A stretch of 47,775 nucleotides of DNA from Babesia bigemina (lineage: Eukaryota), in the NCBI RefSeq assembly GCF_000981445.1, contig NW_012237294.1, forward strand, positions 1 through 47,775, given 5' to 3'. How positions within the stretch are numbered: the first letter of the stretch is position 1; each line of letters opens with the position of its first letter. The notes beneath the pieces are model-generated. The model saw only the letters and a program-made list of their open reading frames with translations. It was not told the origin of the DNA and searched no databases. The position numbers were made by a program, and so were the translations under genes. Shown one piece after another: positions 18,818 to 47,139 of this stretch.

Positions 18818-18832
18818 AAGTGGTGATTATTA

Positions 18833-24795: not shown

Positions 24796-25452
24796 TAACT
24801 AAAGTGCTGACCAATGCCATGACCAAAGTGGTGACCAAACTGCTGACCAAAGTGCTGACCAATGTGCTGACCAAGGTGCTGAACAAGGTGCTGACCAACG
24901 CGTTGACCAATGCCATGACCAAAGTGCTGACCAATGTGCTAACCAAGGTGCCGACCAATGTGGTGACCAATGTGTTGACCAAAGTGGTGACCAATGCCAT
25001 GACCAGAGTGGTGACCAAAGTGGTGACCAATGTGGTGACCAATGTGGTGACCAATGTGTTGACCAAAGTGTTGACCAAGGTGCTGACCAACGCCATGACC
25101 AACGTGTTGACCAATGTGCTGCCCAAAGTGTTGACCAACTTGGTGACCAACGTGCTGACCTAAGTGCTGACCAATGTGCTGACCAATGTGCTGACCTAAG
25201 TGCTGACCAATGTGCTGACCAAAGTGTTGACCAATGCCATGACCAAAGTGGTGACCAATGCCATGACCAAAGTGTTGACCAATGTGCTGACCAATGTGTT
25301 GACCAACGTGCTGACCAATGCCATGACCAAAGTGTTAACCAAAGTGGTGACCAAGCACCTGACCAAAGTGCTGACCAATGTGCTGCCCAATGCCATGACC
25401 AAAGTGTTGACCAATGTGCTGACCAAAGTGGTGACCAAGGTGCTGACCAAGT
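24796..25452. repeat. 12-bp minisatellite
   Basis: Long tandem GTGCTGACCAAN array. Confidence 0.95.
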
Positions 25453-25454
25453 TG

Positions 25455-25700
25455 ATGGTCACGGCAGCGGTGACATGGTTACGGCAGCGATGACATGGTA
25501 AAGGCAGCGGTGACATGGTAAAGGCAGCGGTGACATGGTAAAGGCAGCGATGACATGGTCACGGCAGCGATGACAGTGGTGACGGCAGCGATGACATGGT
25601 AACGGCAGCGATGACATGGTAACGGCAGCGATGACATGGTTACGGCAGCGATGACATGGTTACGGCAGCGATGACATGGTTACGGCAGGGATGACAGTGG
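25455..25700. repeat. 20-bp minisatellite
   Basis: Tandem a(c/a)ggcagcg(a/g)tgacatggt(a/c/t). Confidence 0.95.
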
Positions 25701-25733
25701 TGAGCAAGCACCTGACCTAAGTGGTGATTATTA

Positions 25734-26036
25734 CCCACTCTACATCGCTCCTTTATCCACTCCACATCGCTCCCTATCCCACTCTACATCGCTCCCTAAC
25801 CCACTCTACATCGCCCCTTTACCCACTCCACATCGCTCCTTAATCCACTCTACATCGCCCTTTATCCACTCTACATCGCTCCTTACTCCACTCTACATCG
25901 CCCCTTTATCCACTCTACATCGCCCCTTAACCCACTCTACATCGCTCCTTAACCCACTCCACATCGCTCCTTTACCCACTCTACATCGCCCCTTAATCCA
26001 CTCTACATCGCCCCTTTATACACTCTACATCGCCCC
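25734..26036. repeat. C-rich 21-22-bp minisatellite
   Basis: Follows linker aagtggtgattatta. Confidence 0.95.
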
Positions 26037-26178
26037 GACTGGCCCTTTCACTTAATTTTGCAAATTTTCTTCGTCCCCTAAAATTTGCCTAAATCGCCTC
26101 CAAAAATTTACCTTGACCGAACTTGACCAAATTTTGGTCATCTTAATCTCCCTCACTTCTCTCACCTCCCTCTCCACC
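26033..26178. repeat. Single copy of the 156-bp element, fused to the truncated ves gene 5
   Basis: gactggccctttcacttaattttgcaaa...ctccctctccacc is colinear with the units at 124-777. Confidence 0.85.
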
Positions 26179-28440
26179 TACAACCGCCCCTTCCTCACCC
26201 ACCTCTCCGCCCTTTCTGCCCTCCTCGACACCATCCGCCCCGCATCCTACTCCGACGACAGCAACCCCCTGCTCGAGTGTCTTAAAAAAGGCGTGCAGGC
26301 GTTGCACGATGAGCTTGACAAGGCGTACGTGTCAGTTTACGACAGTGAGACGTTCGGTGCTGAGCTCGTGGAAAAAGAAAAATTAACGCCGTATGGCACT
26401 AAGTTAGCCAAGGTGTTCATGTCCATCTTTGAAATGATGCATGAAGACCTGAGCTATTTAAAGAACCAATGCATCTCCAAATGGCACAACCGTAGAATAT
26501 ATTCAGGCAGCAGTATGGGCACGTTCTTAAGCAATTGCGGTTACACTGTATCTAATCACGATTCCCACCAGAACGGGGAGCTGCGTAACAAGGCAGAATG
26601 CGACGGTAAGCACATATATAGTACACTTGTCGGAGGATTCAGTCACGTTTACAATTCTCGTGAAGATACGAAAAACGCGTTTCAAAACTTATACGATCAC
26701 ATTCCCACCTATTACCGTGTGTGTCAACTACCCACTTTCTCCTCAACTCGCCGCCCATGTTCCATATATGAAATGCTCCGTTGGCTTAGCGGCTTGCCAT
26801 ACAACGCTGTATATCTCGACCTCATGTCGGATGATTTCGCCGACCTATTCGACAAGCCAAAAGAGGCAAAAACGGAGAGCATTAGTTTAGACGGCATCTC
26901 TCTAGAAGATCAAACTCCAAATACCTTGAATGCCTATCCACAGAAAATTAAGCGCAGTGATTTACATGATGCAATAACGCATATTACGTCCCTTGCTCCC
27001 ACAGTGCTCACAACTGTTGTTGGCTACGGAGATGCGTACTCAATGTACGCAGTTGACTACTACTGCAACGCACCTTCTTTCGTTTACCCATCATCAGCTG
27101 CGGATTGTCTGACCATGTTGATCGAATTACTTCGTCGATTATTACCTGTATTCAGATTCTTGCATAACCGTTGTAGAAACATGGCGTCCGAGTACGGTTG
27201 GTATCAGTGCCGCTACGGCACAACTATCGACTCTTCCAACTGGCACTGCAGTGATCACTCCAAAACCAAAGTTGATTGTCAACCTACGTCTCCGTTGATG
27301 TCGTACCTAAAAGACAGTCTTCCTGGTCATTTACCGCATCATGTTACCAATGTTGACTGCAAATCATCCTGTTCAACGTGCCCTAAAAACCTGCCTGGGC
27401 AGCCGTGTTTAACACCGCTTGGATTCAGAGGTTTCTCGGGATCCACGAAAACAGGGAAAGACATATGTAACGTGCTGACCAAATTCTTTGCCAACGCCCA
27501 TCTTACAACGCTACTCTGCGTCATACCCAAACCGCCATCCACATTGCCGGAACACTTTGAATTCACGTTATCCCTCACGAAGGGTTGGCATAGCAAAATA
27601 GTTCCTTTGCCTCTGACGTGGGTGAAAGAGTGCATTAAAGAACAATCGATTGCCCTGTATAACGACACCGCACAACTCACCAACGCGCTGAGTAACGCCT
27701 ACAATAGCAATCATGGTGGTAACGGCGAAAGGCACCCTGCGGCTGAACGTGCTGACCTATCAAGCCTCTCGATGACGAAGTCATGTTTATATTCTAATGC
27801 GGATAACATTCAATGTTCCCCCTACTTATATGCCTTATGCAGCGATACTTATCATCTACTTGCCAAGAAACATTGCAACCTATATCTCTCATGGGCGGTA
27901 TACCTACCATGGACATTCTATGGCTACCTTCAAGCCCTATGCCAATCCTTCGGCAACATTTCTTGCCAAGACTGGGGCTGCAGCAGATGCGGTAACGGCA
28001 CCAAATGTAAGAAGGGAAAGCACGGCATCGATAACTGCAAGTGTAAAGGTATCCTAGAATGCCGCGGCGTACTAAGCACATTCTACAGCTACGGTTTCAC
28101 ATATGGAAATCCTGAAGTACTGTTAAACAAAGAAGGTAAACGTTACTGCCACAACTTCTATCAACAACTAAAAAATCTTTTAAATTCCAAGTGCTTCACA
28201 GACCTATTCAGAGAGTGCGACAAATTCATATTCACTATCCGCGCACCGTTCCTGTGGATGACCGTCGCACTCTGGTCACTATCACTCTTCTACCTCATCT
28301 GCGTAATGGTTGGCAGACTGGATGTGCTCCACATACGCTCACACCTGAGATCACCATCATCGCACAAGATTACAGCGCAATCGCTGTTGGCTGCAGCGCA
28401 GGTCGGAAGGCTTGCCAAGATATCGTATCTACAACCGTGA
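26113..28440 (+). CDS. ves: ves/VESA-like, C-terminal portion only (gene 5; 5'-truncated), tail AQVGRLAKISYLQP
   Basis: 775-codon ORF; the first ~22 codons derive from the 156-bp element, ves homology starts ~26179; track start is TTG, first ATG 26419. Confidence 0.83.
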   Translation: MTELDQILVILISLTSLTSLSTYNRPFLTHLSALSALLDTIRPASYSDDSNPLLECLKKGVQALHDELDKAYVSVYDSETFGAELVEKEKLTPYGTKLAKVFMSIFEMMHEDLSYLKNQCISKWHNRRIYSGSSMGTFLSNCGYTVSNHDSHQNGELRNKAECDGKHIYSTLVGGFSHVYNSREDTKNAFQNLYDHIPTYYRVCQLPTFSSTRRPCSIYEMLRWLSGLPYNAVYLDLMSDDFADLFDKPKEAKTESISLDGISLEDQTPNTLNAYPQKIKRSDLHDAITHITSLAPTVLTTVVGYGDAYSMYAVDYYCNAPSFVYPSSAADCLTMLIELLRRLLPVFRFLHNRCRNMASEYGWYQCRYGTTIDSSNWHCSDHSKTKVDCQPTSPLMSYLKDSLPGHLPHHVTNVDCKSSCSTCPKNLPGQPCLTPLGFRGFSGSTKTGKDICNVLTKFFANAHLTTLLCVIPKPPSTLPEHFEFTLSLTKGWHSKIVPLPLTWVKECIKEQSIALYNDTAQLTNALSNAYNSNHGGNGERHPAAERADLSSLSMTKSCLYSNADNIQCSPYLYALCSDTYHLLAKKHCNLYLSWAVYLPWTFYGYLQALCQSFGNISCQDWGCSRCGNGTKCKKGKHGIDNCKCKGILECRGVLSTFYSYGFTYGNPEVLLNKEGKRYCHNFYQQLKNLLNSKCFTDLFRECDKFIFTIRAPFLWMTVALWSLSLFYLICVMVGRLDVLHIRSHLRSPSSHKITAQSLLAAAQVGRLAKISYLQP

Positions 28441-28555: not shown

Positions 28556-28687
28556 GTTAACTAAAGTGGTGACTTATGTGCTGACCAATGCCATGACCAA
28601 AGTGCTGACCAAGCACCTGACCAATGTGCTGACCAATGTCATGACCAATGCCATGACCAGAGTGCTGAACAAGCACCTGACTAAGTT
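28556..28687. repeat. 12-bp minisatellite (short)
   Basis: gtgctgaccaat/gccatgaccaaa/gcacctgacc units. Confidence 0.9.
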
Positions 28688-28688
28688 G

Positions 28689-28753
28689 ATGGTTACGGCA
28701 GCGATGACATGGTCACGGCAGCGATGACATGGGCACGGCAGCGATGACATGGT
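28689..28753. repeat. 20-bp minisatellite (~3 copies)
   Basis: acggcagcgatgacatgg units. Confidence 0.9.
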
Positions 28754-28774
28754 GACCAAAGTGGTGATTATTAT

Positions 28775-29074
28775 CCACCTTACATCGCCCCTTTATCCAC
28801 TCTACATCGCTCCTTTATCCACTCTACATCGCCCCTTAACCCACTCTACATCGCTCCCTAATCCACACTACATCGCTCCCTAATCCACACTACATCGCTC
28901 CCTTATCCACTCTACATCGCCCCTTTATCCACTCTACATCGCCCCTTTATCCACTCTACATCGCTCCCTAACCCACTCCACATCGCTCCTTAACCCACTC
29001 TACATCGCCCCTTAATCCACTCTACATCGCCCCTTTATCCACTCTACATCGCTCCCTAACCCACTCTACATCGC
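28775..29074. repeat. C-rich 21-22-bp minisatellite
   Basis: Follows linker aagtggtgattattat. Confidence 0.95.
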
Positions 29075-29100
29075 TCGATTTACCTCGCCATATTACCGCT

Positions 29101-32100
29101 ATGATTTCTTTAAACCATCCTAATAACTTGTGCCTTGTCACCCTTCACTTCCCTTCTACCACCGCTTGCCACTGCCCTGACCATGTGCCGCCTAGGGAGC
29201 TTGGCAAGAAATTTGACAAATTTGATAACCTCAAAAATACCTCAAATAACAACCCTACTAACATCCTTAATAACCTTTGTACTGGTCTTGAGACTTTCCT
29301 CGGCTTCAATCCATCTTCCAAAGGCTACGACGGCACTGGGATTGTCTACTCTGACCTGGATAGGCTATGTGACGGGGTGATGGGATTTTTGTATCAGGTG
29401 CTTAAGGATGTCAGCGAGAAACAGCCTTACAATGTGGGTAAAAATACATTAAATTCGGTAAGCAGCGTAATTAACAAACATCTTTGCTCAGGGCACGATG
29501 GTTTCACTAAGCTTCTTCCCAGCCTGACTAAACACATCGAGAAGTACAACAAAGAGGTGAGAGAGTCTAATAAAGCAGTGTCAAATCCCATTAATGAGTT
29601 AATAAAATACGTCAAAGATCGAGGTGAGTTGCTTGGTAGTATTAATAAGTATCAGGTGACGGACAACATTGAGCAAGACGTACTTGACGCGGCGGAGAAG
29701 ACCATGGCAGAGAAATTGAAGGAGTGTCAGAAAAAAGCAGAAACGTTAAACTCAGTGTTTAATCTTAGTACACAAACAGATATGAAAAATGCTATTAGTT
29801 ATCTTAATTCCACATTAAGTGAACGTGTACGTGTAGCGTTGAGGGCGGTGAGCCATGAGACGGAGAGGCTTAAGACCATGTCAGGTAAGGAACGTAAGGA
29901 CCTTGATGGTTTGCAGGAAAAGATAAAAAGTGTACTGAGTGCACTTGGAAATTGCGTCAACGAGAAGATACAGAAAGATATTGAGAACCTGGTGAAGCAG
30001 CTCAAGGAAGGAGTCAACACTATTTTGAAGCACCTGAAAGATATCGATGGCCAATTAAGGGAGCACGTGCAGAAACTTGAAGAGTGGATGGAGAGCGCCA
30101 AAAAAGAGATCGATAGAATAAGGAACGAGGATGTTAAGAAGATACTTGACGAGACGACTGACGGAATCACGGGCACGACGTATCTGATCAAAGATGATGC
30201 GAAGAAAGTTAAGGATTGGGAAAAGAAGTTGAGTGAAGAGATTGCACGTGTGAAAGGAGAGCTTGCAAAGTTGGTGCAGGAAGCGCTAAGAAAGGTAAAA
30301 TCCATGGACGAGGCGCTTAAAGGGGATTTGTGGAAGGTGAAGGATGCTGTTAATAAGCAGGTGACGGGGATTAAGGAGGCGATTGGGAAGTTGTACGATG
30401 TGGTTGAGAGCGGAGATGCGCACGCTACGAGTACTAAAGCAGATGGGATGCTGTCGAATGTGATCGGATCAATTCGAAGTAAGGTCGCACAAATGAAAAC
30501 AGATGTTGGCGAGAATGGCAAAAATTCCGACCAAAAAACAGGTATATTCAAGCCATGGGATGAGTTGAAAAACAAACTAAATGAGCTTGTGAGCAATATT
30601 TATTTTAAGAAAGGAACAAAAGGAAATCTGTACGAAGTTGAACGAAACATTACAGAGTACGCTAAGGACTTTGTCAGTGAGGCATTGAAAAACAAAGTTC
30701 TTAAAACGTGGATGGACGTAGTTTTAGGAGACCATGGTACTGCGCATCAGTACATTAATCTATACGTGGAAGATAACACGGGTAAGGGTTATTTTAAGGA
30801 TGAAGGGAATCTCAAGCAGAACGTTGAAAAGACCATTAGGAAGGTTTTTGACTCAAAGCTCAAGGCAGTTCTTTCCAAGGTACCCGCAGTGGAGAATCCT
30901 GAATCCTCCAATCTCGTTACTAATCTGGGCAATATTAAGAGGTGTCTCAGAACGTTATGGGAACATTTAAAGGGTGGTATGAAAACTAGTGATTTAACAA
31001 GCTCAAAAATTGTTACCGAAATTATTGGGCAATATGCAGCTGATGGGTTAGTAGAATCGACAAATAATCATACAAAAACGCATCTATATTCCGCAGTTAA
31101 ATATATCGTCAGCGGTATAGCCGATATGGCCGAGCAAGCTGAGACTGAAATTCTGTGGCTCGTCAAAGACAGCACTGTAGTTAAACAACCAAGAAACAAT
31201 TCAAGCATAGCAGCTAATATAGATGCGTCTATCAAACGAATCGATGATTTCGTCACACAATTTAACGGCAATCCGGGCCATGGAGGCTTGGGAAACAAAA
31301 TGGAAGAGGCGTTGTACACCGTGAAACACCGCATACAAAAGTTGCATCAACATCTATCAACTGCGGTAGAGACATCCGGAGAGGGCACCGCCGCCGCCGT
31401 CGACTCCGCGATCACGGGGGTGACTAGCAAGCTGGAGGAGCAGTTGCCGAAAGAACAAAATAATAAATTAGGTACTCATGTCAAACTTGGTGAAGGTCCC
31501 AACATGTTTGATGGTTATAAAGAGTACGTGAAACAAGACACATCTATCTTACAAAAACAGAAGCTTGACGGCACCTCCGCTGAAGGCTCCCTCCCCGCTG
31601 CGATCGGTGATATTGGATCAGCAGCTTCAGACATTTATATCACTCACATCACATCGGGACTCACTGCTCTGTCTGAAAAAATCAAGCAAGATCTTGATAC
31701 CATCACCAAAGCAATAACTACGACTACCAAAAACGTTCAATCTAAATTGGACGATTTCAAAAACAAGAAGCTCGGCAACGCCGCCCATAGCAAACCAGCA
31801 CAGAAAGATACTCTCCAAGAACTGCATTGTAAATTTCTCGACCTTCACAAATATTTCGAAAGTAAGGCCCTCAAAACCGCTGAAGCATTCGCTGCGTACG
31901 CCGACAGATCCGGCAAAAACATCATCGATCCCCTTAAGCAACACGTAAACAATGAGGTCAAAAAGGCTCAAGATAGCATCATTTCCGAAGCCAAAAAAAA
32001 CTACATCTCCTCCATTCAGTCGCTGCTCCAGCGATTTGCGTCCAAGGTTCACAGCGAGCTGGAAGCGTTGCCCAAATCCATTGAAGACGATTTGACGCTT

Positions 32101-34704
32101 GGCTTCAAGGGCTTCATGGTGAAGTTCGAGATGAGTTTCATTACCAACGAAAAGTCAATTAAAGGTATTAAAGACATTGAAACTACAAGTCCACAGAAAG
32201 AATCTCCACTGCGACAGGCGGCAACAAAATTCTTCGGAAGCGTCAACAGATTCCTACATGGTTTAGAGACACAGCCGGACTTCAAAACGGACTATGAAAA
32301 AATTAAGCCAACACGTGAGGCGCTGGCTAAGTTGTTCGGAGGCCTTGTCACTTCCGAGTACTTCGATCACGAGTTTTCTAGGAATTTATCGGCGCTGAAG
32401 GTGACGCTCAGTGAATTAAAGCCCGCTATCTATGGCGAAGCTAAGTGTCCGTTGCTACTGAATGCTTTGAAGAACGGTCTATCCTTCCTTGTTGACACGT
32501 TGGACAAGACTTACATCTCCGCCTACGACAGTGAGACGTTTTCCGATGATTTAGTTAAAGGCGACAACACATTGACTAAATATGGCAAGTATTACGCCAA
32601 GGTATTCCTTACTGCATTGCGGACTCTCGACGTATCGTTGTATGGGTTGAAGCATGAGTGCAAGAGTCTGACGGGACAAAAAATCAATTCATCCACCGAT
32701 CTCGGAAGATTGTTCGTGCGCCACGGCTTTAAGGTTGCGGAAGAAAATAAAGAACACTGGGAGCTGCAAAACAGAACAGTCATCAGCGGGGCGTACGTTT
32801 CCAACAGAATTAACTATAGGGTCAGCGGCGCGAAAGGGAATGAGCATCTTAAACAGTGCGAATCAAAGAAACGCAATGATGATCACTTCAATGTGTTTGA
32901 TATGATTAGATGCCTAGTAACTCACGTCAAGCAGTACTTCGAAGTTTGCCACTATTCCACTTCCACAGCGAAGAGACAACCATGCTCCGTATATGAGATG
33001 CTCATATGGCTCTCGGGTCTTCCACATAACAAAGTGTATGATGCGTTGTTAACTGACGGTCTCAGTGCACCGTTTGAAGATCCAGACAAGCAGACGAAGG
33101 AGGTGGACGGTGATGCTGACTTCACTGTATCTGACCTGCAAGAGTCGCATCTAGATGCGTACCCTAAACAAATCACGTATAAGAGCGTCGCTAAAGTCTT
33201 GGACCATGTATGCTCAGCGTCGTATGACGTCTTGACAACTATTGCTGGGACCGGTAACGTACTAACAACCTACGCAGTAGATTACTGCACCAACTCACAT
33301 GGCCTCTATTACCCGTCCACAGGAGAAGACTGCCTTCATACTGTGCTTGACATCCTCCGCCGGCTGTTACCGCAACTCAGATACTTGTTCAACCGTTGTA
33401 ATGTGAAAGCTGAAAACTACGGCTGGCGTGACTGCCGTTACGGTAGTGCCGTTGACTTCTCAACTTGGCAATGTAACGACCACTCAAGCGACGAATCAAA
33501 CACCAAACCAAATGACCAACCAAACAGCGAACCAAATAGCGAACCAAATTGCCGACCAACGTCTCCATTAATGTCGTATCTAAACGACTGCCTTCCTGGC
33601 CACCTACCTCATAGGCTCACATCGATAGGATGTAAGTCTGAGTGCAAGACATGCCCTGGTAGTAAACCCGGAATGCCATGTCTGACTCCATTAGGTTTCA
33701 GAGCATTTTCCGGATCAACTAAGACGGGTATAAGTATATATGAAACACTTTGGCTTTTCTTTGGTAACGGTCTAATTTCATCGCTGTTTTGCCTTGTACC
33801 TACTCCGCCTAGGACACTGCCAGAGCATTTCCAGTTTGCGTTGTGCTTAGGTAGGAGTTTGAATGGAGATGTTAATCATTCAATCAAAAATGTATTCGAA
33901 TCGTCCATAGACGACTTGTCTATTAAACTCTATGATCCGGCGACCAAATTCACTGATGCACTTCGTGATGTTTATGGTAACAACCATAACCACAAAAGTG
34001 CAAGGCCTGCCGATTTGTCGAGTCTGTCAACAACAACATCATGCGTACACCCTAAGAGGGAAAGCATTTATTGTTCTCCATACCTCGCGGCGCAATGCCA
34101 GGATTACTATTCGTATCTTGCGAGTAAATATGCCAATGTATACCTTTCATGGGCTCTTTACCTCCCGTGGGCATTGTTCAAATATCTCCAGAGCCTACTT
34201 CAAGATTTCCGCAATATATCGTGCCGTGATTCCGGATGCCATGGATGCACGCAAACCGAAATTTGTAAAGGTGGGCAGCATGGTGTCGACTACAACTGCA
34301 GATGCTACAGCGTTGTAAAATGTCGAGGCGTAGCAAGCATATTCTACAGTTATGGATTCGCATTTGGCGATTCAAAACAATTACTGGAAGCAGACGAACA
34401 AAGACGATATTGCTACCATTTCTACAATCAGCTGCAGAACGTCCTTAAATCCAAATATTTTGAAACGCTATTCACGGAATGCGACAACTTCCTGTTCACC
34501 ATCAGACAGCCGTTTATATGGCTCAACGTCGCGCTCTGGTCACTCTCCCTATTCTACCTCATTTGCGTCATGGTTGGCAGACTGGATGTGCTCCATATCA
34601 AATCACATCTGAGGATACCGTCGTCGCACAAGATAACGGCGCAATCGCTGTTGGCTGCAGCGCAAGTCGGAAGGCTTGCCAAGATATCGTATCTACAACC
34701 GTAG
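29101..34704 (+). CDS. ves: ves/VESA-like variant surface antigen (gene 6), tail AQVGRLAKISYLQP; only copy with leader ATG in frame
   Basis: 1867-codon ORF from a true ATG (MISLNHPNNLCLVTLHFP...) with all family motifs. Confidence 0.9.
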   Translation: MISLNHPNNLCLVTLHFPSTTACHCPDHVPPRELGKKFDKFDNLKNTSNNNPTNILNNLCTGLETFLGFNPSSKGYDGTGIVYSDLDRLCDGVMGFLYQVLKDVSEKQPYNVGKNTLNSVSSVINKHLCSGHDGFTKLLPSLTKHIEKYNKEVRESNKAVSNPINELIKYVKDRGELLGSINKYQVTDNIEQDVLDAAEKTMAEKLKECQKKAETLNSVFNLSTQTDMKNAISYLNSTLSERVRVALRAVSHETERLKTMSGKERKDLDGLQEKIKSVLSALGNCVNEKIQKDIENLVKQLKEGVNTILKHLKDIDGQLREHVQKLEEWMESAKKEIDRIRNEDVKKILDETTDGITGTTYLIKDDAKKVKDWEKKLSEEIARVKGELAKLVQEALRKVKSMDEALKGDLWKVKDAVNKQVTGIKEAIGKLYDVVESGDAHATSTKADGMLSNVIGSIRSKVAQMKTDVGENGKNSDQKTGIFKPWDELKNKLNELVSNIYFKKGTKGNLYEVERNITEYAKDFVSEALKNKVLKTWMDVVLGDHGTAHQYINLYVEDNTGKGYFKDEGNLKQNVEKTIRKVFDSKLKAVLSKVPAVENPESSNLVTNLGNIKRCLRTLWEHLKGGMKTSDLTSSKIVTEIIGQYAADGLVESTNNHTKTHLYSAVKYIVSGIADMAEQAETEILWLVKDSTVVKQPRNNSSIAANIDASIKRIDDFVTQFNGNPGHGGLGNKMEEALYTVKHRIQKLHQHLSTAVETSGEGTAAAVDSAITGVTSKLEEQLPKEQNNKLGTHVKLGEGPNMFDGYKEYVKQDTSILQKQKLDGTSAEGSLPAAIGDIGSAASDIYITHITSGLTALSEKIKQDLDTITKAITTTTKNVQSKLDDFKNKKLGNAAHSKPAQKDTLQELHCKFLDLHKYFESKALKTAEAFAAYADRSGKNIIDPLKQHVNNEVKKAQDSIISEAKKNYISSIQSLLQRFASKVHSELEALPKSIEDDLTLGFKGFMVKFEMSFITNEKSIKGIKDIETTSPQKESPLRQAATKFFGSVNRFLHGLETQPDFKTDYEKIKPTREALAKLFGGLVTSEYFDHEFSRNLSALKVTLSELKPAIYGEAKCPLLLNALKNGLSFLVDTLDKTYISAYDSETFSDDLVKGDNTLTKYGKYYAKVFLTALRTLDVSLYGLKHECKSLTGQKINSSTDLGRLFVRHGFKVAEENKEHWELQNRTVISGAYVSNRINYRVSGAKGNEHLKQCESKKRNDDHFNVFDMIRCLVTHVKQYFEVCHYSTSTAKRQPCSVYEMLIWLSGLPHNKVYDALLTDGLSAPFEDPDKQTKEVDGDADFTVSDLQESHLDAYPKQITYKSVAKVLDHVCSASYDVLTTIAGTGNVLTTYAVDYCTNSHGLYYPSTGEDCLHTVLDILRRLLPQLRYLFNRCNVKAENYGWRDCRYGSAVDFSTWQCNDHSSDESNTKPNDQPNSEPNSEPNCRPTSPLMSYLNDCLPGHLPHRLTSIGCKSECKTCPGSKPGMPCLTPLGFRAFSGSTKTGISIYETLWLFFGNGLISSLFCLVPTPPRTLPEHFQFALCLGRSLNGDVNHSIKNVFESSIDDLSIKLYDPATKFTDALRDVYGNNHNHKSARPADLSSLSTTTSCVHPKRESIYCSPYLAAQCQDYYSYLASKYANVYLSWALYLPWALFKYLQSLLQDFRNISCRDSGCHGCTQTEICKGGQHGVDYNCRCYSVVKCRGVASIFYSYGFAFGDSKQLLEADEQRRYCYHFYNQLQNVLKSKYFETLFTECDNFLFTIRQPFIWLNVALWSLSLFYLICVMVGRLDVLHIKSHLRIPSSHKITAQSLLAAAQVGRLAKISYLQP

Positions 34705-34856: not shown

Positions 34857-35265
34857 GACCAGGCAACGTGTTAACCTAGCACACAGGCAACGTGCTGAGC
34901 TAGCACCCAGGCAGAGTGGTAACCTAGCACACAGGCAAAGTGTTGACCTAGCAACCAGGCAACGTGCTAAGCTGGCAACCAGGCAACGTGTTATGCCAGC
35001 AGCCAAGCAAAGTGATAAGCTGGCACACAGGCAAAGTGCTAACCTAGCACACAGGCAAAGTGATAAGCTGGCACCCAGGCAACGTGATAAGCTAGCACCC
35101 AGGCTAAGTGCTAAGCTAGCACCCAGGCAAAGTAGTAAGCTAGCACCCAGGCTAAGTGCTAAGCTAGCAACCAGGCAAAGTGTTAACCTAGCAACCAGGC
35201 AAAGTGCTAAGCTAGCACCCAGGCAAAGTGGTAAGCTAGCACCCAGGCAAAGTGCTAAGCTGGCG
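34857..35265. repeat. 24-bp minisatellite (AGGCAAAGTGCTAAGCTAGCAACC family)
   Basis: Strict 24-bp period; second array at 44868-45730. Confidence 0.95.
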
Positions 35266-35775
35266 GATGAACCGTAATTTGGTGGGTGTTGTAGCACGTT
35301 GATTGCCTGTTGCGTTGATTCACGCGTTGACTGTGAGAGGTGTCCGCGTTACCCATTGAGTCAGTGTCACGTGAGGCTGGGTGATTTGTTGCTGACGTAG
35401 GCGGTCGTGAGGGCCGCGGCGGGTGAGCTAAGTCCTGTGTTGCGAGTCACTGGCAGGGTGGCGTAATCGGCGTTGGCCTGGTTAAGTAGCGTTTATAGGC
35501 GGCAATGTAGCGATTGTTAATATCACATTTAGGCACGTAGCCGACACGCTCCGCCAGCATGGCGACGATACCGCGGCTTGTAGCACGGCGCTGCTGCACT
35601 ATGGGAGTTGAGCGCACGGGGTTCGCTGCAATTTTAATGGCGTTGCGAATAGTGAATAATTTAGAGTGACAGTTGGTGCTAGTCACATGCGTCGTGTCAT
35701 GGCAGCTGTGGTATCCTGGGCAGCGTGGGTGTCGGTGTCCCGGGCTGGGGGGATACAGGGGTGAGGGTAGGTGTT
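35266..35775 (+). promoter_or_regulatory. Conserved non-repetitive spacer, candidate promoter/5' region of small Cys-rich gene
   Basis: Colinear and highly similar to 45726-46216; same position between 24-bp and 76-bp arrays; no shared ORF. Confidence 0.5.
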
Positions 35776-35778
35776 GAT

Positions 35779-36400
35779 GAGGGGACTGGGAGCGGCAGTG
35801 GCACGTGTTGCAGTTGGTGAGTGCGTTGCTTAAGTGATTGATATGCTTGCAGGTTGAGGGGACTGGGAGCGGCAGTGGTAGTGTTGCAGTTGGTGAGTGC
35901 TGCTTAGGTGATTGATATGTTCGCAGGTTGAGGGTACTGGGAGCGGCAGTGGTAGTGTTGCAGTTGGTGAGTGCGTTGCTTAAGTGATTGATATGTTTGC
36001 AGGTTGAGGGGACTGGGAGCGGCAGTCTTACGTGTTGAAGTTGGTGAGTGCTGCTTGAGTGATTGATATGTCTGCAGGTTGAGGGGACTGGGAGCGGCAG
36101 TGGTAGTGTTGCAGTTGGTGAGTGCGTTGCTAGGTGATTGATATGTTCGCAGGTTGAGGGGACTGGGCGCGGCAGTGGTAGTGTTGCAGTTGGTGAGTGC
36201 GTTGTTTAGGTGATTGACATGCTTGCAGGCTGAGGGGAGTGGGAGCGGCAGTGGTAGTGTTGCAGTAGGTGAGTGCGTTGCTTGAGTGATTGATATGTTT
36301 GCAGGTTGAGGGGACTGGGAGCGGCAGTGGTACGTGTCGTAGTTGGTGAGTGCGTTGCTTGAGTGATTGATATGTTTGCAGGTTGAGGGGACTGGGAGCG
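35779..36400 (+). repeat. ~76-bp tandem repeat (8 full units + partial), each with a GTGAGT...YAG intron-like segment
   Basis: gaggggactggg anchors at 35779, 35856, 35930, 36006, 36081, 36156, 36232, 36308, 36385. Confidence 0.9.
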
Positions 36401-36410
36401 GAGCGGCAAG

Positions 36411-36977
36411 ATGGGTTATGGTGACCGATGTATATGTCTTACGAATTGTGTGTATCCTGATTGTGTCTGTTGTGCTTGGTGTTGTGACGAATGTAGAAAA
36501 TACATGTCTAGCGATTGCAAGGTATGTGCGTCATATTACTATTTCCGTACTAGAGGGTCGAGTTCTTACGATTGCAGCAAATTTAAATGTAAGAAACAAT
36601 GTAAAGGCAACGAGGGTAAATGTCAATGTGATTGTAAATGTTGTGAAAAAAAACGTGAAGCGGAACGTGAAAAGCTTGCCGCCTCCCAGTCTCTCCCCGG
36701 TCCACACTCTCCCCCTGATTCCTCCAGTCTTGAGTCTGAGTCCGTCAGTCGAGCTCAATCGTCCGATCTTCCCACTGTGCAGCCGTATACTGGCGTCCAT
36801 GATACAGAAAACTCCACCACATTCACCCCGGACCCCCAAGCCATCGCCGCCGTCATCGTTGCTATCATCGTCGCCATCATCCTGCTCGACCTGTGCATCT
36901 TCCGCTTTCCGGTGGGCCGCAACATCCGCGATTTCCTCGTCCGCAAGATACCCTTCTGCATCGCGTTCTACAGCTGA
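36411..36977 (+). CDS. Small Cys-rich, single C-terminal TM protein A (188 aa), unknown function
   Basis: ATG start; 19 Cys in the first 78 aa; S/P/T linker; TM AIAAVIVAIIVAIILLDLCIF; paralog with the same Cys spacing at 46451. Confidence 0.8.
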   Translation: MGYGDRCICLTNCVYPDCVCCAWCCDECRKYMSSDCKVCASYYYFRTRGSSSYDCSKFKCKKQCKGNEGKCQCDCKCCEKKREAEREKLAASQSLPGPHSPPDSSSLESESVSRAQSSDLPTVQPYTGVHDTENSTTFTPDPQAIAAVIVAIIVAIILLDLCIFRFPVGRNIRDFLVRKIPFCIAFYS

Positions 36978-37115
36978 ACTTAGCGACATGTTAGCGCATA
37001 AATTGTTCATCCAAATTCCACTGGCCACCTAACTGGCAACTAAGATCTAATGTTGTAGACAAAGTAACGATTGCGTTGATGATCAATTACATGAGCAGTG
37101 AGGTGACTACTTCAC

Positions 37116-37226
37116 TCTCCCTACTCCGCCATCGCCGCCGTCGCCCTCCTCCTCATCGTCATCTGCGCCATGGTCTACTTCCGCATCCGGCCGTTCCACA
37201 GGGTGAGGTATCTACTGCGCAGCTAA
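37116..37226 (+). pseudogene. Orphan TM+tail fragment of the small Cys-rich gene B type
   Basis: SPYSAIAAVALLLIVICAMVYFRIRPFHRVRYLLRS* versus ..VALIIVVICVMVYFRIRPFHRVRYLLRS* at the end of 46451-46903. Confidence 0.85.
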
Positions 37227-37313
37227 TCACAATGAAGCAACTGGCAACTGACATCTAATGTGCTAGACAGTAATGATTGCGTTGATGACTAATTACATGA
37301 GCAGTGAGGTGAC

Positions 37314-37478
37314 TACTTCCTCTCCTCCCTACTCCTCCACATCATGGTCATCCGCCTCGACCTGCTCCACATCAAATCGCATCTACATAGTCCCTCATCA
37401 CATCGTATCGCCGCGCAATCACTACTTGCTGCTGCACGTGTTAACAAGCTTAACAGAGTGTTTTATCTGCAACCATAA
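37314..37478 (+). pseudogene. Orphan ves TM/tail fragment (ARVNKLNRVFYLQP class) with its 3' flank
   Basis: LLHIMVIRLDLLHIKSHLHSPSSHRIAAQSLLAAARVNKLNRVFYLQP* followed by the standard ves 3' flank. Confidence 0.9.
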
Positions 37479-37595: not shown

Positions 37596-38025
37596 TAACT
37601 AAAGTGTTGACCAATGTGCTGAGCAATGCGATGACCAAGGTGCTGACCAATGTGCTGACCAAAGTGGTGACCAAGGTGCTGACCAAAGTGGTGACCAATG
37701 CCACGACCAAAGTGGTGACCAATGCCACGACCAACGTGGTGACCAATGTGCTGACCTACCACCTGACCAACGTGGTGACCCAAGTGCTGACCAATGCCAT
37801 AACCAAAGTGCTGACCAACGTGCTGACCAAGGTGCTGACCAATGTGTTGACCAATGCCATGACCAACGTGTTGACCAATGTGCTGACCAATGTGTTGACC
37901 AATGTGGTGACCAATGTGCTGACCAAAGTGGTGACCAAGGTGCTGACCAAAGTGGTGACCAATGCCACGACCAAAGTGGTGACCAATGCCATAACCAAAG
38001 TGGTGACCAAACACCTGACCAAGTT
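37596..38025. repeat. 12-bp minisatellite
   Basis: GTGCTGACCAAN family. Confidence 0.95.
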
Positions 38026-38026
38026 A

Positions 38027-38070
38027 GTGGTTACGGCAGCGATGACATGGTCACGGCAGCGATGACATGG
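38027..38070. repeat. 20-bp minisatellite (2 copies)
   Basis: t(t/c)acggcagcgatgacatgg x2. Confidence 0.85.
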
Positions 38071-38090
38071 TGACCAAGTGATGATTATTA

Positions 38091-39393
38091 TCCACTCTAC
38101 ATCGCCCCTTATCCACTCTACATCGCCACTTTATCCACTTTACATCGCCACTTTATCCACTCCACATCGCCCCTTAACCCACTCTACATCGCCCCTTTAT
38201 CCACTCTACATCGCTCCCTTATCCACTCCACATCGCCCCTTATCCACTCTACATCGCCCCTTTATCCACTCCACATCGCCCCTTTATCCACTCTACATCG
38301 CCCCTTTATCCACTCTACATCGCCCCTTTACACACTCCACATCGCTCCCTAACCCACTCTACATCGCCCCTTTACCCACTCCACATCGCCCTTTTATCCA
38401 CTTTACATCGCCACTTTATCCACTCTACATCGCTCCCTAACCCACTCTACATCGCTCCTTTACCCACTCCACATCGCCCCTTAACCCACTCTACATCGCC
38501 CCTTTATCCACTCTACATCGCCCCTTTACACACTCCACATCGCTCCCTAACCCACTCTACATCGCCCCTTTACCCACTCCACATCGCCCTTTTATCCACT
38601 CTACATCGCCCCTTTACCCACTCTACATCGCCCCTTTATCCACTCTACATCGCTCCTTCATCCACTCTACATCGCCCCTTTACCCACTCTCCATCGCTCC
38701 CTAACCCACTCTACATCGCTCCCTAACCCACTCCACATCGCCCCTTTATCCACTCTACATCGCCCCTTTACACACTCCACATCGCTCCCTAACCCACTCT
38801 ACATCGCCCCTTTACCCACTCCACATCGCCCTTTTATCCACTCTACATCGCCCCTTTACCCACTCTACATCGCCCCTTTATCCACTCTACATCGCTCCTT
38901 CATCCACTCTACATCGCCCCTTTACCCACTCTCCATCGCTCCCTAACCCACTCTACATCGCTCCCTAACCCACTCTACATCGCCCCTTTACCCACTCCAC
39001 ATCGCTCCTTTATCCACTCTGCATCGCCCCTTTATCCACTCTACATCGCTCCTAATCCACTACACATCGCTCCCTAATCCACCTTACATCGCTCCCTTAC
39101 CCACTCTACATCGCCCCTTTATCCACTCTACATCGCCCCTTTACCCACTCCACATCGCTCCTTTATCCACTCTACATCGCCCCTTTACCCACTCTACATC
39201 GCTCCCTAACCCACTCTACATCGCCCCTTATGCACTCTACATCGCCCCTTATGCACTCTACATCGCTCCCTAACCCACTCTACATCGCCCCTTTACCCAC
39301 TCTCCATCGCCCCTTTACCCACTCTACATCGCTCCCTAATCCACTCTACATCGCCCCTTATTCACTCCACATCGCTCCCTAACCCACTCTACA
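38091..39393. repeat. C-rich 21-22-bp minisatellite, longest array (~1.3 kb)
   Basis: Tandem ccactctacatcgc units with internal higher-order duplication. Confidence 0.95.
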
Positions 39394-39506
39394 TCCCTCG
39401 AATTACCTCGCCATAATACCGCTATGACCTTTATAAACCATCCTAATAACTTGTCTCTTGTCACCCTTCACTTCCCTCTTCCACCTCTTGCCACTGCCCT
39501 GACCAT

Positions 39507-42500
39507 GTGCCGCCTTGGGAGCTTGACAAGAAATTTGACAAAATTTCAAACCTTAGAATCACCTTAAATAACAACCCTACTAACATCCTTAACAACCTCT
39601 GCTCCGGCCTTCAAACCTTCCTCGGCTTCAACTCTGCTTCCAAAGGCTACGACGGCTCTGGGATCGTGTACTCAGACCTTGATAGGCTGTGTGATGCAGT
39701 GATGGGATTTTTGAGTGGTGTGCTTGGTGCGGTGAAGGATGAAAATGAGGTGACAACTTATGATAAATACATCACTGATCCTGAGAAAAGACTTAATAAA
39801 GTAATAGAAAAAGTACAATCTTCAATTGGCTCCGGGCGTGAAGGGCTTGCGGTGTCTGTCGGCGCGGTGAAGGGGTGGTTGGAGGGGTATGAGAGGGAGG
39901 TGGGCAAGAAAACAAAAGCAGTGACAGACAGTTTAGCAACGTTAATCAAAGCAAAAATCGAAAAACATGCAAATGAAATTAATCAGCATAATGACCTCAG
40001 TACCCAATTGATTTTCCGGGCCCATGTGCTCGGAGATGCAAGCTTTGAAATTGAAAAAATCGAAAATGAACACGTCAATAAATTAGATAACTCTCTTAAG
40101 GAAAAAGTACAAAATAAAATTGAACCGATTAAAAAGTCTGTTGCAATGCTGGCAAATTCCGCCAAGCAAGATAAATTTGTGAAGCAGGCGGCGAAGGTGG
40201 AGAGTGAGTTGGTGCAACAAAAAATGAAAATTCAACAGGAATTACATTTGAGGTTTCTAAACATATTCAACGGAATTGATAGTCTGAAAGACGCTCGAAA
40301 GCAGGGTATGAACGGTATCAAAGACCATTTGAACGATGCTATGAAACTGGTTGATAAAGAGTTGGGGAATCATCAAGACAATTTCAAAAATAATATTTTA
40401 TATAAATTTGCGGAGATAAAAGATAAATTAAGTGATGTTGATAAGGATCAATTTAGAGGTGGTGTTGACGGTATGACAAGGCTTCGAAATGATGTTACTT
40501 CGATAAGGTCGCAGCTTTCTCAAGTTGAAACGCAACTCGGCCAACGAGTTAAAGAGTTGACCGATTGGAATGCTGCGGCAGGAAGCGCTGTGAGTAAGGC
40601 GAAGGGGAAATGTAAGCAGATTGTAGAGAAGGTTCATCACGCTGGCGGGGAGCAAAATACGGAAATTGGTAAGAACGATGAGGACTTGAAGAAAAAGGCT
40701 TCGGCGCTCCTGAAGGCATATGAGAAGGCTCATGCAGCAGTTGATACATTGGCCAAGAGCACTGTCACTGCCGCTATTGAAGATTTGGAAGAGAACATCA
40801 AAACTGATTTGTATACGATCAAAGAAGGAATAAAAAGTGGATTGAAGCAGGTTATTGATGCTCTTAAGGCAGGGATTGCTAATGCTATGGAAGATGATAG
40901 AGGAACCCTTTTCGTGCAAGAGTTCAGTCTTGGTCTAGGAGGCAAATATGGTAATGCTCCAAAGCTGTACGCGTGGGCTGATGCGATAAAGAATAGTAGT
41001 ACACTCAAAGATGCTATAGGAAATTTGCAGTGGAAAAGCAACGCATTTGAAGATTTCAAAAACATATTAAAACAACTTGAACAAAATCAGAGTAGTGCAG
41101 GCATTTTTTACGAAGTTCTAAATGAGGATCTTGACGGCAAGGTAGATGGAAAGTTGACCAGTGCAGGTAGAGGTGGAAGTAAAGTAAAACTAAGCGTACT
41201 CGGAACATACGAAAAAAATAAAAAACCGGGTTCCAGAAGCAAGTATCAAACACTAGTTACCACAGATATTCCTGATGCTCTGAAAGAGTTCAAGCAGATG
41301 GATGCCTTCAAAGGTAAAGAAGATCTTAATAAAGGCACAGTCGCGGAAAGTACAAAAACAGTTGACGACGCCTTTCAAATGATCACCACCCAACTCAACG
41401 AAATCGCCGGGCTGGTTGACAGCAGTAAAGGAACGCAGCACACGGCTGATGGCCAGAAAAACGGCGTGAACAACTACCTAGAGGATATTACAAGTTTGCT
41501 TGGTAAGGATACAGTTACTCTCACCTCCGATATAAAATCTGCCCACTCATCTGTCCAAGGCCTCGTGACGATAAAAACGCAACTTGAGATGCTAAATAAG
41601 GATCATCTTACTGAAGAGTCCGGCCAAATCGTGAAAGCAATCGACGAGATTGTTAAGTTAATACAGGGTCTTGAAGCGGTTCCTAAAAATGTTAATGAAA
41701 AGAGGAATGAAGCCGAGCTGCTCATGGAATCCCTGAAGAACAGACTCGATGGCCATCTCTCTGCCATAGAAATGAAGATCACAGATGCCGACCGTATTAT
41801 GTCTGCTGCCATTGTTGTGCTCGAAAATGCTCTTCAAGAAGCTCGCCGAAATGCCGAACAATCCGTCACCTCCGCCTTCTCCACCCTTACCTCCGAGGTC
41901 CGCTCCCTCTTCGCCGACGCCCACAAAGCCGACCTTGCTGCGCTCAAGACGCTCGTCGACGGGCAGAAGGAGGAGATTGAGGGGATCATCAGATCTGCAA
42001 AAATTACAGGTGTGATGGGATTGATAAGGAAAATGCATCCTAATAAAAGCGACTTTGAACAAATTAGCGAATTTGTGACTCCCGTGAAATTGAAGGCCGT
42101 ACCAACTAAAGAGGATTTCACTGGCATGTCTTCACACTTCAGGAAAATTGTCGACTCGTTTCTCGAATACACCGAATATCAAGTGTCCACTTCGTCTGGC
42201 GATCCTCATAAACGCCTGCCCACCGACCAGTCCGAGAAGGTGAGACATCTCAAGGACGCATTTGATGCCCTTCTTCACTACCTTAAACAAAATGGCGATT
42301 TAACTCGGCAGTACCTTTTTGACCATCATTTCGATGATTTACTTGCCTCCCTCAACGCCCTTGTCTCCTCCCTCTCTCCCTCCTTCTCCTCCCCCTCCCC
42401 CCTCCTCGCCCCCCTCAAGACCGGCCTCTCCAAATTCGCCGAGCAACTCGGCCACGCGTACGTGAACAGGTATAGTGGGAGGAAACGTTCTGATGACTGG

Positions 42501-44867: not shown

Positions 44868-45730
44868 AATGCAACGTGTTGACCTAGCACCCAGGCAAAG
44901 TGCTAAGCTAGCAACCAGGCTAAGTGGTAACCTAACACCCAGGCAAAGTGCTAGGCTAGCAGTCAGGCAACGTGCTAAGCTAGCAACCAGGCAAAGTGCT
45001 AAGCAAGCACACAGGCAAAGTGACAAGCAAGCAAGCAGGCAAAGTGCTAACCTAGCAACCAGGCAACGTGCTAAGCTAGCAGTCAGGCAACGTGCTAAGC
45101 TAGCAACCAGGCAAAGTGTTAAGCAAGCACACAGGCAAAGTGATAAGCAAGCACACAGGCAACGTGTTGACCTAGCACGCAGGCAAAGTGCTAAGCTAGC
45201 AACCAGGCAACGTGTTAAGCAAGCACACAGGCAAAGTGATAAGCAAGCAAGCAGGCAAAGTGCTAACCTAGCAACCAGGCAACGTGCTAAGCTAGCAGTC
45301 AGGCAACGTGCTAAGCTAGCAACCAGGCAAAGTGTTGACCTAGCAGCCAGGCAAAGTGCTAAGGTAGCAACCAGGCAAAGTGGTAAGCAAGCTACCGAGC
45401 TAAGTGTTAACCTAGCAACCAGGCAAAGTGGTAAGCTGGCAACCAGGCAACGTGCTATGGTAGCAACCAGGCAACGTGTTAAGCAAGCACACAGGCAAAG
45501 TGATAAGCAAGCACACAGGCAACGTGTTGACCTAGCACGCAGGCAAAGTGCTAAGCTAGCAACCAGGCAACGTGTTAAGCAAGCACACAGGCAAAGTGAT
45601 AAGCAAGCACACAGGCAACGTGGTAACCTAGCACCCAGGCAACGTGTTAAGCTAGCACCCAGGCAACGTGTTAAGCTAGCACCCAGGCAAAGTGTTGACC
45701 TAGCACGCAGGCAAAGTGCTAAGCTGGCGG
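44868..45730. repeat. 24-bp minisatellite
   Basis: Strict 24-bp period, ~36 units; ends aagctggcggatgaaccgtaa as in the first array. Confidence 0.95.
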
Positions 45731-46216
45731 ATGAACCGTAATTTGGTAGGTGTTATAGCACGTTGAGTTACGCGTTGACTGTGAGAGTCGTCTGCGTTGC
45801 CCATTAAGTCAGTGTCACGTGAGGCTGGGTGATTGGTCGCTAACGTAGGCGGTCGTGAGGGCCGCGGCGGGTGACCTAAGTCGTGTGTTGCGAGTCACTG
45901 GCAGGGTGGCGTCATCCGCGTTGGCCTGGTTAAGTAGCGTTTATAGGCGGCAATGTAGCGATCGTTAATGTCACATTTAGGCACGTAGCGGACACGCTCC
46001 GCCAGTATGGCGTCTATACGCGGCTCGTAGCACGGTGCTGCTGCACTGTGGGAGTTGAGCGCACGGGGTTCGCAGCAATTTCAATGGCGTTGCGAATGTT
46101 AAATAATTCAAAGTGACGGTTGGTGCTGATCACATGCGTCGCGTCAGGCGTGGCTGTGGTATCCCGGGCAGCGTGGGTGTCGGTGGCCCGGGCTGGGGGG
46201 ATACAGGGGTGAGGGT
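45726..46216 (+). promoter_or_regulatory. Conserved non-repetitive spacer (second copy)
   Basis: Colinear with 35266-35775. Confidence 0.5.
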
Positions 46217-46227: not shown

Positions 46228-46437
46228 TGTTGCAGTTGGTGAGTGCTTGCGTAGTGATTGATATGTTTGCAGATTGAGGGGACTGGGAGCGGCAGTGGTA
46301 CGTGTTGCAGTTGGTGGGTGTTTGCGTAAGTGATTGATATGTCTACAGGTTGAGGGGACTGGGAGCGGCAGTGGTACGTGTTGCAGTTGGTGAGTGCTGC
46401 TTGAGTGATTGATGTCTGCAGGTTGAGGGGACTGGGA
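46228..46437 (+). repeat. ~76-bp repeat, 3 units with intron-like segments
   Basis: GT..AG segments at 46239-46272, 46314-46348, 46390-46421. Confidence 0.85.
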
Positions 46438-46450
46438 GGGGAGAAGGAAG

Positions 46451-46903
46451 ATGGCTTGGGACGATTGTACGTGTGCTAATAACTGTAAGAAACCTAATTG
46501 TAAGTGCTGTCCCTGGTGTTGTAATGGATGTATAAAAAGGTGTTTACAATGTTTCAATTTGTCTGTTGTGCGCAAAAGCGGAGCACCGTGCTACTTTCCG
46601 GAATGTGTTGGTTGTAAGACTAACACGTGTCCATGTCCATGTTGTGAAAGAAAACGTCCTACCCACTATTATAATACTCATACTGGCCGACACTTCACTG
46701 TCGCTGCCTCCGACCGTCTCCATCAGATTCCCACTCAACAGCTCTCTAACAGAGTTTCTACTCAAGAATCTGCCACAGATACCAATTCCTCCCCCGCCCC
46801 TTACATCATCGTCCCCGTCGCCCTCATCATCGTCGTCATCTGCGTCATGGTCTACTTCCGCATCCGGCCGTTCCACAGGGTGCGGTATCTACTGCGCAGC
46901 TGA
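46451..46903 (+). CDS. Small Cys-rich, single C-terminal TM protein B (150 aa), unknown function
   Basis: ATG in the same aagATGg context as gene A; 18 Cys in the first 65 aa; TM YIIVPVALIIVVICVMVYF; basic tail. Confidence 0.8.
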   Translation: MAWDDCTCANNCKKPNCKCCPWCCNGCIKRCLQCFNLSVVRKSGAPCYFPECVGCKTNTCPCPCCERKRPTHYYNTHTGRHFTVAASDRLHQIPTQQLSNRVSTQESATDTNSSPAPYIIVPVALIIVVICVMVYFRIRPFHRVRYLLRS

Positions 46904-46981: not shown

Positions 46982-47135
46982 AGGTGACCAATGTGCTGAC
47001 CAAGCACCTGACCAAGGTGTTGACCTATGTGCTGACCAAAGTGGCGACCTATGTGCTGACCAAAGTGCTGACCAATGCCACGACCAATGCCACGACCAAT
47101 GTGCTGACCAATGCCATGACCAAAGTGGTGACCAC
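46982..47135. repeat. 12-bp minisatellite
   Basis: Starts directly after the ..ttacatgagcagcgaggtgac motif. Confidence 0.9.
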
Positions 47136-47139
47136 GTTA

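What the first reader, a model, noticed from the sequence alone, without database searches (positions are those of the whole stretch)
35779..36410. Tandem repeat built of intron+exon units, each hiding a 4-codon uORF, in front of a small gene
Seen: each ~76-bp unit has a donor GTGAGT, a branch-like TTGA(T/C), a pyrimidine-only variable triplet (ttt/ctt/ttc/tct) and GCAG. This gives 34-36-nt candidate introns at 35817-35852, 35893-35926, 35967-36002, 36044-36077, 36118-36152, 36193-36228, 36269-36304 and 36346-36381, separated by 40-41-nt ATG-free exons. Each intron holds an ATG opening M(F/L/S)AG*, which ends in the next exon. The second module has 3 such units (32-35 nt; MFAD*, MSTG*, MSAG*). 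Known: piroplasm introns are characteristically very short. Inference: a copy-number-variable 5' UTR where complete splicing removes the repeat-borne uAUGs and retention represses translation, i.e. a splicing-tuned rheostat, and also intron gain by tandem duplication.
Basis: partly seen in the sequence, partly recalled or inferred. Interest (0 to 1): 0.85.

Follow-up and report, generated by a model that had tools for sequence, protein, structure and literature searches.

The report
Tandem intron-exon repeat in gene leader
In what is likely a Babesia bigemina surface-antigen gene cluster, a 76-base unit with splice-site-like signals is repeated 8 and 3 times just upstream of two small cysteine-rich genes predicted to encode membrane proteins; it is likely a non-coding leader whose short introns would be spliced out, and its proposed role as a dial on translation is untested.

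Summary
In detail: eight 34-36-nt GT..AG candidate introns with 40-41-nt spacers precede an ATG at 36411, and three more precede 46451. Both genes belong to a Cys-rich, single-TM family found only in Babesia bigemina, among ves1-type genes. The repeat is family-wide: 18 of 35 annotated relatives carry peptides read from it, but those models are ab initio. The array is not coding here: exon lengths are not triplets, and a TGA lies in frame 27 nt before both ATGs. Splicing is plausible but unshown; eight RNA runs gave no test. One shuffled unit gives such splice signals 13% of the time (2.6% stricter), and the copies are one event. The uORF is not above chance: 57% of shuffled introns hold an ATG. 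Four to five ATGs further upstream survive splicing if transcription starts at the one initiator-like site. Best reading (0.5): a spliced non-coding leader whose length drifts by tandem duplication. A regulated rheostat is possible (0.15) but has no specific support. Interest 0.45.

The parts
35778..36401 (+). 76-bp tandem array, 8.2 units (module 1)
35817..35852 (+). candidate intron 1 (36 nt), uATG 35843 (MLAG*)
35893..35926 (+). candidate intron 2 (34 nt), uATG 35917
35967..36002 (+). candidate intron 3 (36 nt), uATG 35993
36044..36077 (+). candidate intron 4 (34 nt), uATG 36068
36118..36152 (+). candidate intron 5 (35 nt), uATG 36143
36193..36228 (+). candidate intron 6 (36 nt), uATG 36219
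36269..36304 (+). candidate intron 7 (36 nt), uATG 36295
36346..36381 (+). candidate intron 8 (36 nt), uATG 36372; acceptor 29 nt before the main ATG, in-frame TGA at 36384-36386
36411..36977 (+). single-ORF gene, 188 aa: variable Cys-rich N-terminal region (19 Cys in first 85 aa), Pro/Ser linker, one predicted TM segment, near-invariant tail; B. bigemina-only family
35262..35768 (+). upstream block 89% identical to 45726-46216; likely promoter and start of leader; one TYAYWWW initiator-like site (35523), candidate 30-nt intron 35371-35400, extra donor-like GTGAGG at 35761
34859..35261 (.). 24-bp tandem repeat, 16.8 copies (35.1 copies at 44884-45725 in module 2)
46228..46438 (+). module 2 array, 2.8 units; candidate introns 46239-46272, 46314-46348, 46390-46421; last acceptor 29 nt before the ATG
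46451..46903 (+). second family member, 150 aa, Cys-rich, different TM/tail type
29101..34704 (+). upstream large ORF, ves1-like (context)

Best explanation
The 76-bp unit is likely one short spliceosomal intron plus one non-coding exon, copied in tandem in the presumed 5' leader of a family of small Cys-rich predicted membrane proteins, so that splicing would remove the repeat-borne ATGs and translation would start at 36411 / 46451. Shown: the repeat, its signals, its position, that it cannot extend the protein, and that relatives carry it. Inferred: transcription starts upstream of or inside the array; the introns are removed mostly by default; unit number drifts by unequal exchange between paralogs, like the 12-, 20-, 22- and 24-bp repeats around it; the 4-codon uORFs are a tolerated by-product of the branch-point/acceptor sequence. 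More units would give more chances of incomplete splicing and so may lower output passively, but nothing here shows regulation.
For: GT and AG ends kept in 11 of 11 units; variation is richer inside the introns (17 of 36 columns vary, 4 with gaps; exons 11 of 41, 1 with a gap) and after the ATG changes only between C and T; intron GC 46% vs exon 60%. Signals are on the gene's strand only. Last acceptor 29 nt before the ATG in both modules, with a TGA in frame. Exons of 40/41 nt, stops in all three frames somewhere in module 1. In 20 B. bigemina models the last repeat exon meets the ATG region in three different frames (2 / 4 / 14; read by hand from peptides), which argues against conserved coding. 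Median B. bovis 5' UTR is 152 nt (PMC4148916), so at least the last one or two units should lie in the leader. An extra donor-like site at 35761 / 46209 would also put ATG 35777 / 46227 in an intron.
Against: No RNA evidence either way. Splice-like signals arise in 13% (2.6% strict) of shuffled units. The intron-vs-exon difference in variable columns is not significant (Fisher p = 0.096, and the copies are related). The same GTGAGT occurs 3-4 times on the opposite strand in 8 of 8 ves-type 3' flanks, so it may be a DNA motif of these clusters. The gene models disagree among themselves: 19 junction peptides fit another donor 15-16 nt upstream and 6 read through the donor. From the only initiator-like site the spliced leader would be about 550 / 350 nt with 5 / 4 ATGs left, long against the 152-nt median.
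Confidence: 0.5

Rival explanations
1. The array is an unspliced intergenic or promoter-proximal minisatellite, like the four other repeat types between these genes; GGTGAGT is a DNA-level motif or coincidence, and transcription starts at or after its end.
For: Every intergenic space in the window is filled with tandem repeats. 25 of 36 minus-strand GTGAGT in the window lie in the eight ves-type 3' flanks, antisense to those genes (25 is my sum of the per-flank counts minus one upstream copy each in two flanks). Chance rate of the signals 13%. A downstream start would avoid all upstream ATGs.
Against: Only 29 nt separate the last unit's acceptor from the ATG; the known piroplasm promoter motif (G/A)TGGGG (PMC4148916, PMC13720069 passages) is absent from both modules (2 matches in the whole window, neither here); no TYAYWWW inside the array; pyrimidine-only variation before the AG.
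Confidence: 0.25
2. One reading: retention of the repeated introns is regulated, and the retained 4-codon uORFs (and NMD) tune translation by unit number and life stage.
For: ATG present in 11 of 11 introns; all removed by splicing in 35853-36410; last uORF stops 24 nt before the main ATG. 5' UTR intron retention acting through uORFs is established in other eukaryotes (PMC5602073 passages), and leader junction number anti-correlates with translation (PMC5961209 abstract).
Against: ATG in the intron and a short ORF are chance-level (57%, 24%); the ATG lies in a block that is invariant anyway; splice sites look strong, not retention-prone; other upstream ATGs remain; no expression data.
Confidence: 0.15
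3. The exons are coding micro-exons that, by alternative donors and skipping, give the protein a variable N-terminus or signal peptide, as the public B. bigemina models imply.
For: 18 of 35 models carry such peptides; a 40+41 pair keeps frame, and one frame reads hydrophobic (LRGLGAAVVVLQL).
Against: Models are ab initio; many lose the conserved N-terminal Cys motif; in both window modules the last exon has TGA in frame with the ATG; frame to the ATG differs among loci; no protein of 502-2000 aa carries the peptides (weak evidence).
Confidence: 0.05
4. The array is removed as one long intron (first donor to last acceptor) or by variable skipping, so unit number changes intron length, not intron number.
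For: Identical donors and acceptors allow any pairing; an extra donor-like site precedes the array in both modules.
Against: Short-intron organisms are expected to pair nearest sites (own knowledge); each unit keeps both signals.
Confidence: 0.05

Closest known systems
[quoted passage not shown]
   Same: Variable numbers of introns in genes of ves clusters; product with one C-terminal TM segment, short tail and no obvious signal peptide.
   Different: Here the introns are near-identical tandem copies and lie before the start codon; the protein is 150-190 aa and has no VESA1 domain or tail.
B. bigemina ves2 and B. bovis smORF (PMC4066756 section 22)
   Same: Small multicopy genes interspersed with ves1.
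   Different: [quoted passage not shown]
5' UTR intron retention acting through uORFs (PMC5602073 passages); leader junctions and translation (PMC5961209 abstract); uORFs in Theileria parva (PMC4761415 passage)
   Same: An ATG inside a leader intron would act as a uORF on retention.
   Different: Known cases read here concern single introns with RNA evidence; this is a variable-number array without RNA evidence.
Intron increase by internal exon-intron duplication / tandem genomic duplication (recalled; only a cited title seen in PMC3488318)
   Same: Tandem copying raises intron number.
   Different: In a non-coding leader, repeated up to 8 times and copy-number variable across paralogs.
Giardia VSP and schistosome micro-exon genes (both recalled, not tested)
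   Same: VSP: variable Cys-rich region with near-invariant TM and tail. MEG: runs of short exons.
   Different: No sequence relation found; MEG exons are coding and frame-symmetric, these are 40/41 nt and non-coding.

Membership tests
Spliceosomal (U2-type) intron | GT..AG ends with donor consensus | tested here: met
   GT and AG in 11 of 11; GTGAGT in 10 of 11
Spliceosomal (U2-type) intron | Branch-like site and pyrimidines before the AG | tested here: inconclusive
   TTGAT/TTGAC 11-15 nt from the end in all units; no B. bigemina branch consensus available to score against
Spliceosomal (U2-type) intron | Removed from the RNA | tested here: inconclusive
   No RNA holder listed; 8 of 24 listed runs laid, no joints, organism not shown to be in them
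5' UTR intron | Lies between transcription start and main ATG | not testable with these tools
   Upstream of the ATG and non-coding; start site unknown
Regulatory uORF / retention switch | uORF translated and affecting the main ORF; retention varies | not testable with these tools
   Sequence-level enrichment tested and not above chance
Micro-exon coding gene | Exons keep an open frame into the main ORF | tested here: not met
   40/41-nt exons, in-frame TGA 27 nt before both ATGs
ves2 / smORF (small gene) | Signal peptide, no TM segment | tested here: not met
   Crude hydropathy only: peak 3.25 / 2.96 near the C-terminus, 1.42 / 0.47 in the first 35 aa; no signal-peptide predictor was run
ves1 (small gene) | VESA1 domain or conserved VESA C-terminus | tested here: not met
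   No VESA family among Pfam matches of 13 of 13 members; no ves1 protein among the hits
ves1 (large flanking ORF) | Similarity to VESA1 clusters | tested here: inconclusive
   Atlas feature scores 0.96-0.97 to clusters with PF12785 in 14-79% of members; no direct Pfam VESA1_N hit

The most novel reading that the evidence does not exclude
B. bigemina has an undescribed family of some 40 variable Cys-rich surface proteins whose expression level is set gene by gene by the number of tandem intron-exon units in the leader: each unit must be spliced to remove a uORF, so recombination that adds or deletes units, or stage-specific retention, turns output up or down. That would be a copy-number-encoded splicing rheostat on a variant antigen family.
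Probability: 0.15. Interest if true: 0.8.

Novelty: new variant of a known kind. Interest (0 to 1): 0.45.

Why it matters
If the units are spliced, this is a natural series of paralogs with different numbers of near-identical leader introns, a direct test bed for how leader intron number and retention affect expression and for intron gain by duplication. It also points to a species-specific, variable Cys-rich membrane protein family in ves clusters that I did not find described, and suggests that about half of its public gene models have a wrong N-terminus read from this repeat. If the units are not spliced it is one more minisatellite of a repeat-rich cluster.

Tried and rejected
No whole genome is held for the window, so copies elsewhere could be judged only from protein models. 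RNA: no RNA holder listed; 8 of 24 listed runs laid: 0 reads in six, 1 partial read in X16, 2 reads at 90-95% in X18 totalling about 60 letters in one bin of the array with none on the adjoining ves-type 3' end; no joints; this is no test. A 23-base unit pattern found nothing in metagenome contigs. Rfam: only a sub-threshold mir-239 match on the 24-bp repeat. Structure model low confidence (pLDDT 59.5, pTM 0.33), no Foldseek PDB match, no Atlas hit for the Cys-rich part, Pfam only sub-cutoff TM-region matches. The beetle zinc-finger hit P0042 (31 residues, E 2.8e-5) was rejected as spurious. Minus-strand ORFs over the array shift frame with the 75-77-nt units and were rejected. G4Hunter peak is 1.4 with or without splicing, so no splicing-dependent G-quadruplex. 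Six BBBOND ids were absent from the supplements searched (one file of PMC4066756 not searched). Earlier scan notes: nothing relevant. In one search the extra donor was cut one base late; this changes leader lengths by one base and not the ATG lists.

Full report
Observation. The finding is accurate. A 76-bp repeat of 8.2 copies spans 35778-36401 and 2.8 copies span 46228-46438. All eight candidate introns lie at the stated coordinates (34-36 nt) with ATG-free spacers of 40-41 nt, and module 2 has three of 34, 35 and 32 nt. Each holds an ATG that opens four codons and stops at a TGA just inside the next exon. Small corrections: the main ATG is 36411; one module-2 unit has GTGGGT and ACAG; ATGs at 35777 and 46227 lie in the first exons and survive removal of the listed introns.

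Context. The window is a same-strand array of large ORFs separated by 12-, 20-, 22- and 24-bp repeats. The C-terminal third of the ORF ending at 34704 scores 0.96-0.97 to Apicomplexan clusters that partly carry Pfam VESA1_N, so these are likely ves1-type genes. The small gene after the array (188 aa) has 36 relatives among 102 candidates: its own record and 35 proteins named Babesia bigemina. A full HMMER scan of 1.84 billion representatives gave 22 hits, 21 from B. bigemina and one spurious beetle protein. The organism is therefore B. bigemina or very close. Thirteen aligned members show a Cys scaffold with variable sequence between, a Pro/Ser linker, one hydrophobic segment and a near-invariant tail in two types. 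No Pfam family passes its cutoff, the model is poor and no fold matches. It is not ves2 or smORF as described in PMC4066756 section 22 (signal peptide, no TM). Surface location is my inference from topology and neighbourhood.

The repeat is family-wide. 18 of the 35 relatives found with the mature protein carry N-terminal peptides that are translations of the repeat's exons. A search with such a peptide found four more short models among 5 hits, giving 22 of 40 (P0001, two 3' fragments and the beetle protein were left out, and the four extra were selected for the peptide). The number of motifs per model runs from 1 to 7, suggesting variable unit number. No protein of 502-2000 aa scored (0 of 2749 candidates, weak evidence). 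These models come from ab initio finders trained on B. bovis and manual editing (PMC4066756 methods): they show that the units look like Babesia introns, not that they are spliced. I saw only the peptides, not the DNA of those loci.

Not coding. Exons are 40 or 41 nt in no regular order; each frame meets a stop somewhere in module 1. In both modules the last acceptor is 29 nt before the ATG and a TGA lies in frame, so no N-terminal extension can pass it. In 20 public models the last exon meets the ATG region in three frames (2, 4 and 14; assigned by hand, tallied).

Are they introns? For: GT and AG in 11 of 11 units; a branch-like TTGAY 11-15 nt from the end; C/T-only variation before the AG; lower GC (46% vs 60%); more variable columns inside (17 of 36 vs 11 of 41); signals only on the gene's strand. 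B. bovis introns average 60 bp (PMC3467087 Table 1); that most are 30-40 nt is recalled, not from a call. Its median 5' UTR is 152 nt (PMC4148916), so the last units should be transcribed if the gene is. Against: the copies are one event, and 13.4% of 20,000 shuffled units show the signals (2.6% strict); the column difference has p = 0.096; 19 junction peptides fit another donor and 6 read through; and GTGAGT recurs 3-4 times on the opposite strand behind 8 of 8 ves-type tails, so it may be a DNA motif. RNA gave no test: no holder was listed and 8 of 24 added runs showed no joints and were not shown to contain the organism. I put real splicing at about 70%.

The uORF claim. Splicing leaves 0 of 7 ATGs in 35853-36410, so the geometry works. 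But 57% of shuffled introns contain an ATG and 24% of those ATGs open 4 codons or fewer; 43% of shuffled exons lack one. The ATG sits in a block that is invariant anyway. The 508-nt upstream block, 89% identical between modules, has one initiator-like TCACATT (35523 / 45971); from there 5 and 4 ATGs remain even with an extra donor at 35761 / 46209. So either the start is further down or the leader is not ATG-free. The piroplasm promoter motif (G/A)TGGGG (PMC4148916, PMC13720069) is absent from both modules.

Mechanism. Most likely (0.5) a spliced non-coding leader whose exon-intron unit is amplified by unequal exchange, with incidental uORFs; rivals are an unspliced minisatellite (0.25), the regulated rheostat (0.15), coding micro-exons (0.05) and one long or skipped intron (0.05).

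Literature. Ten full-text searches listed no description of this repeat or family; most subscription papers, including the primary B. bovis ves1-beta splicing and promoter papers, are outside the library and were not seen. Read: PMC4066756 (abstract, passages, section 20, part 1 of sections 4 and 22, three supplements searched, one not); PMC4148916 (passages, part 2 of 6); passages of PMC2034396, PMC12064010, PMC10463595, PMC3467087, PMC3488318, PMC13720069, PMC4761415, PMC5602073; PMC5961209 (abstract, outline); PMC6630957 (term search, no hit); PMC9531838 (listing, supplement list and id search). Unseen supplements may list these genes or their expression. B. bovis ves1-beta genes with 2-11 variable introns and 5' UTR retention acting through uORFs are known; a variable-number tandem exon-intron unit in a leader of this family is what I did not find.

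Verdict. Real feature, well described; intron reading plausible and untested; rheostat speculative. New variant of a known kind, interest 0.45; 0.8 if the rheostat proves true (probability 0.15).

Noticed in passing
window, within 150 nt after stops 3588, 10779, 18270, 24676, 28440, 34704, about 37478, 44717: All eight ves-type 3' flanks carry 3-4 GTGAGT on the minus strand, mostly as AG|GTGAGT (ACTCACCT on the sense strand); antisense splice donors, a 3' UTR element complementary to 5' splice sites, or a DNA motif.
   Followed up: partly
window 36978-37478: After the small gene's stop: a spacer, a fragment with the other TM/tail type, the same spacer again, then a ves1-type tail. Three B. bigemina models (P0019, P0034, P0036) join one TM type to the other through this spacer; recombination remnants or alternative 3' cassettes.
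   Followed up: partly
window 35371-35400 and 45819-45848: Conserved 30-nt GT..AG candidate intron with CTGAC / CTAAC just before the AG, upstream of the initiator-like site; the leader may start earlier and hold more introns.
   Followed up: no
window 4940-5420, 12040-12520, 19010-19360, 26000-26330, 39370-39640, 740-1250: Most large ves1-like ORFs have stops or frameshifts at their 5' ends or are fragments, as expected of silent donor copies.
   Followed up: no
window 3716-4977, 10908-12073, 18399-19042, 24804-26033, 28582-29076, 37604-39395, 46985-47775: Intergenic spaces follow a fixed order of 12-, 20- and 22-bp repeats with very variable copy numbers; the 24-bp repeat occurs only before the two small genes.
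   Followed up: no
window whole: RTGGGG is strongly depleted: 2 matches against about 39 expected from shuffles.
   Followed up: no
proteins P0002-P0040: About half of the public B. bigemina models of this family probably have wrong N-termini read from the repeat, several losing the first Cys motif.
   Followed up: yes
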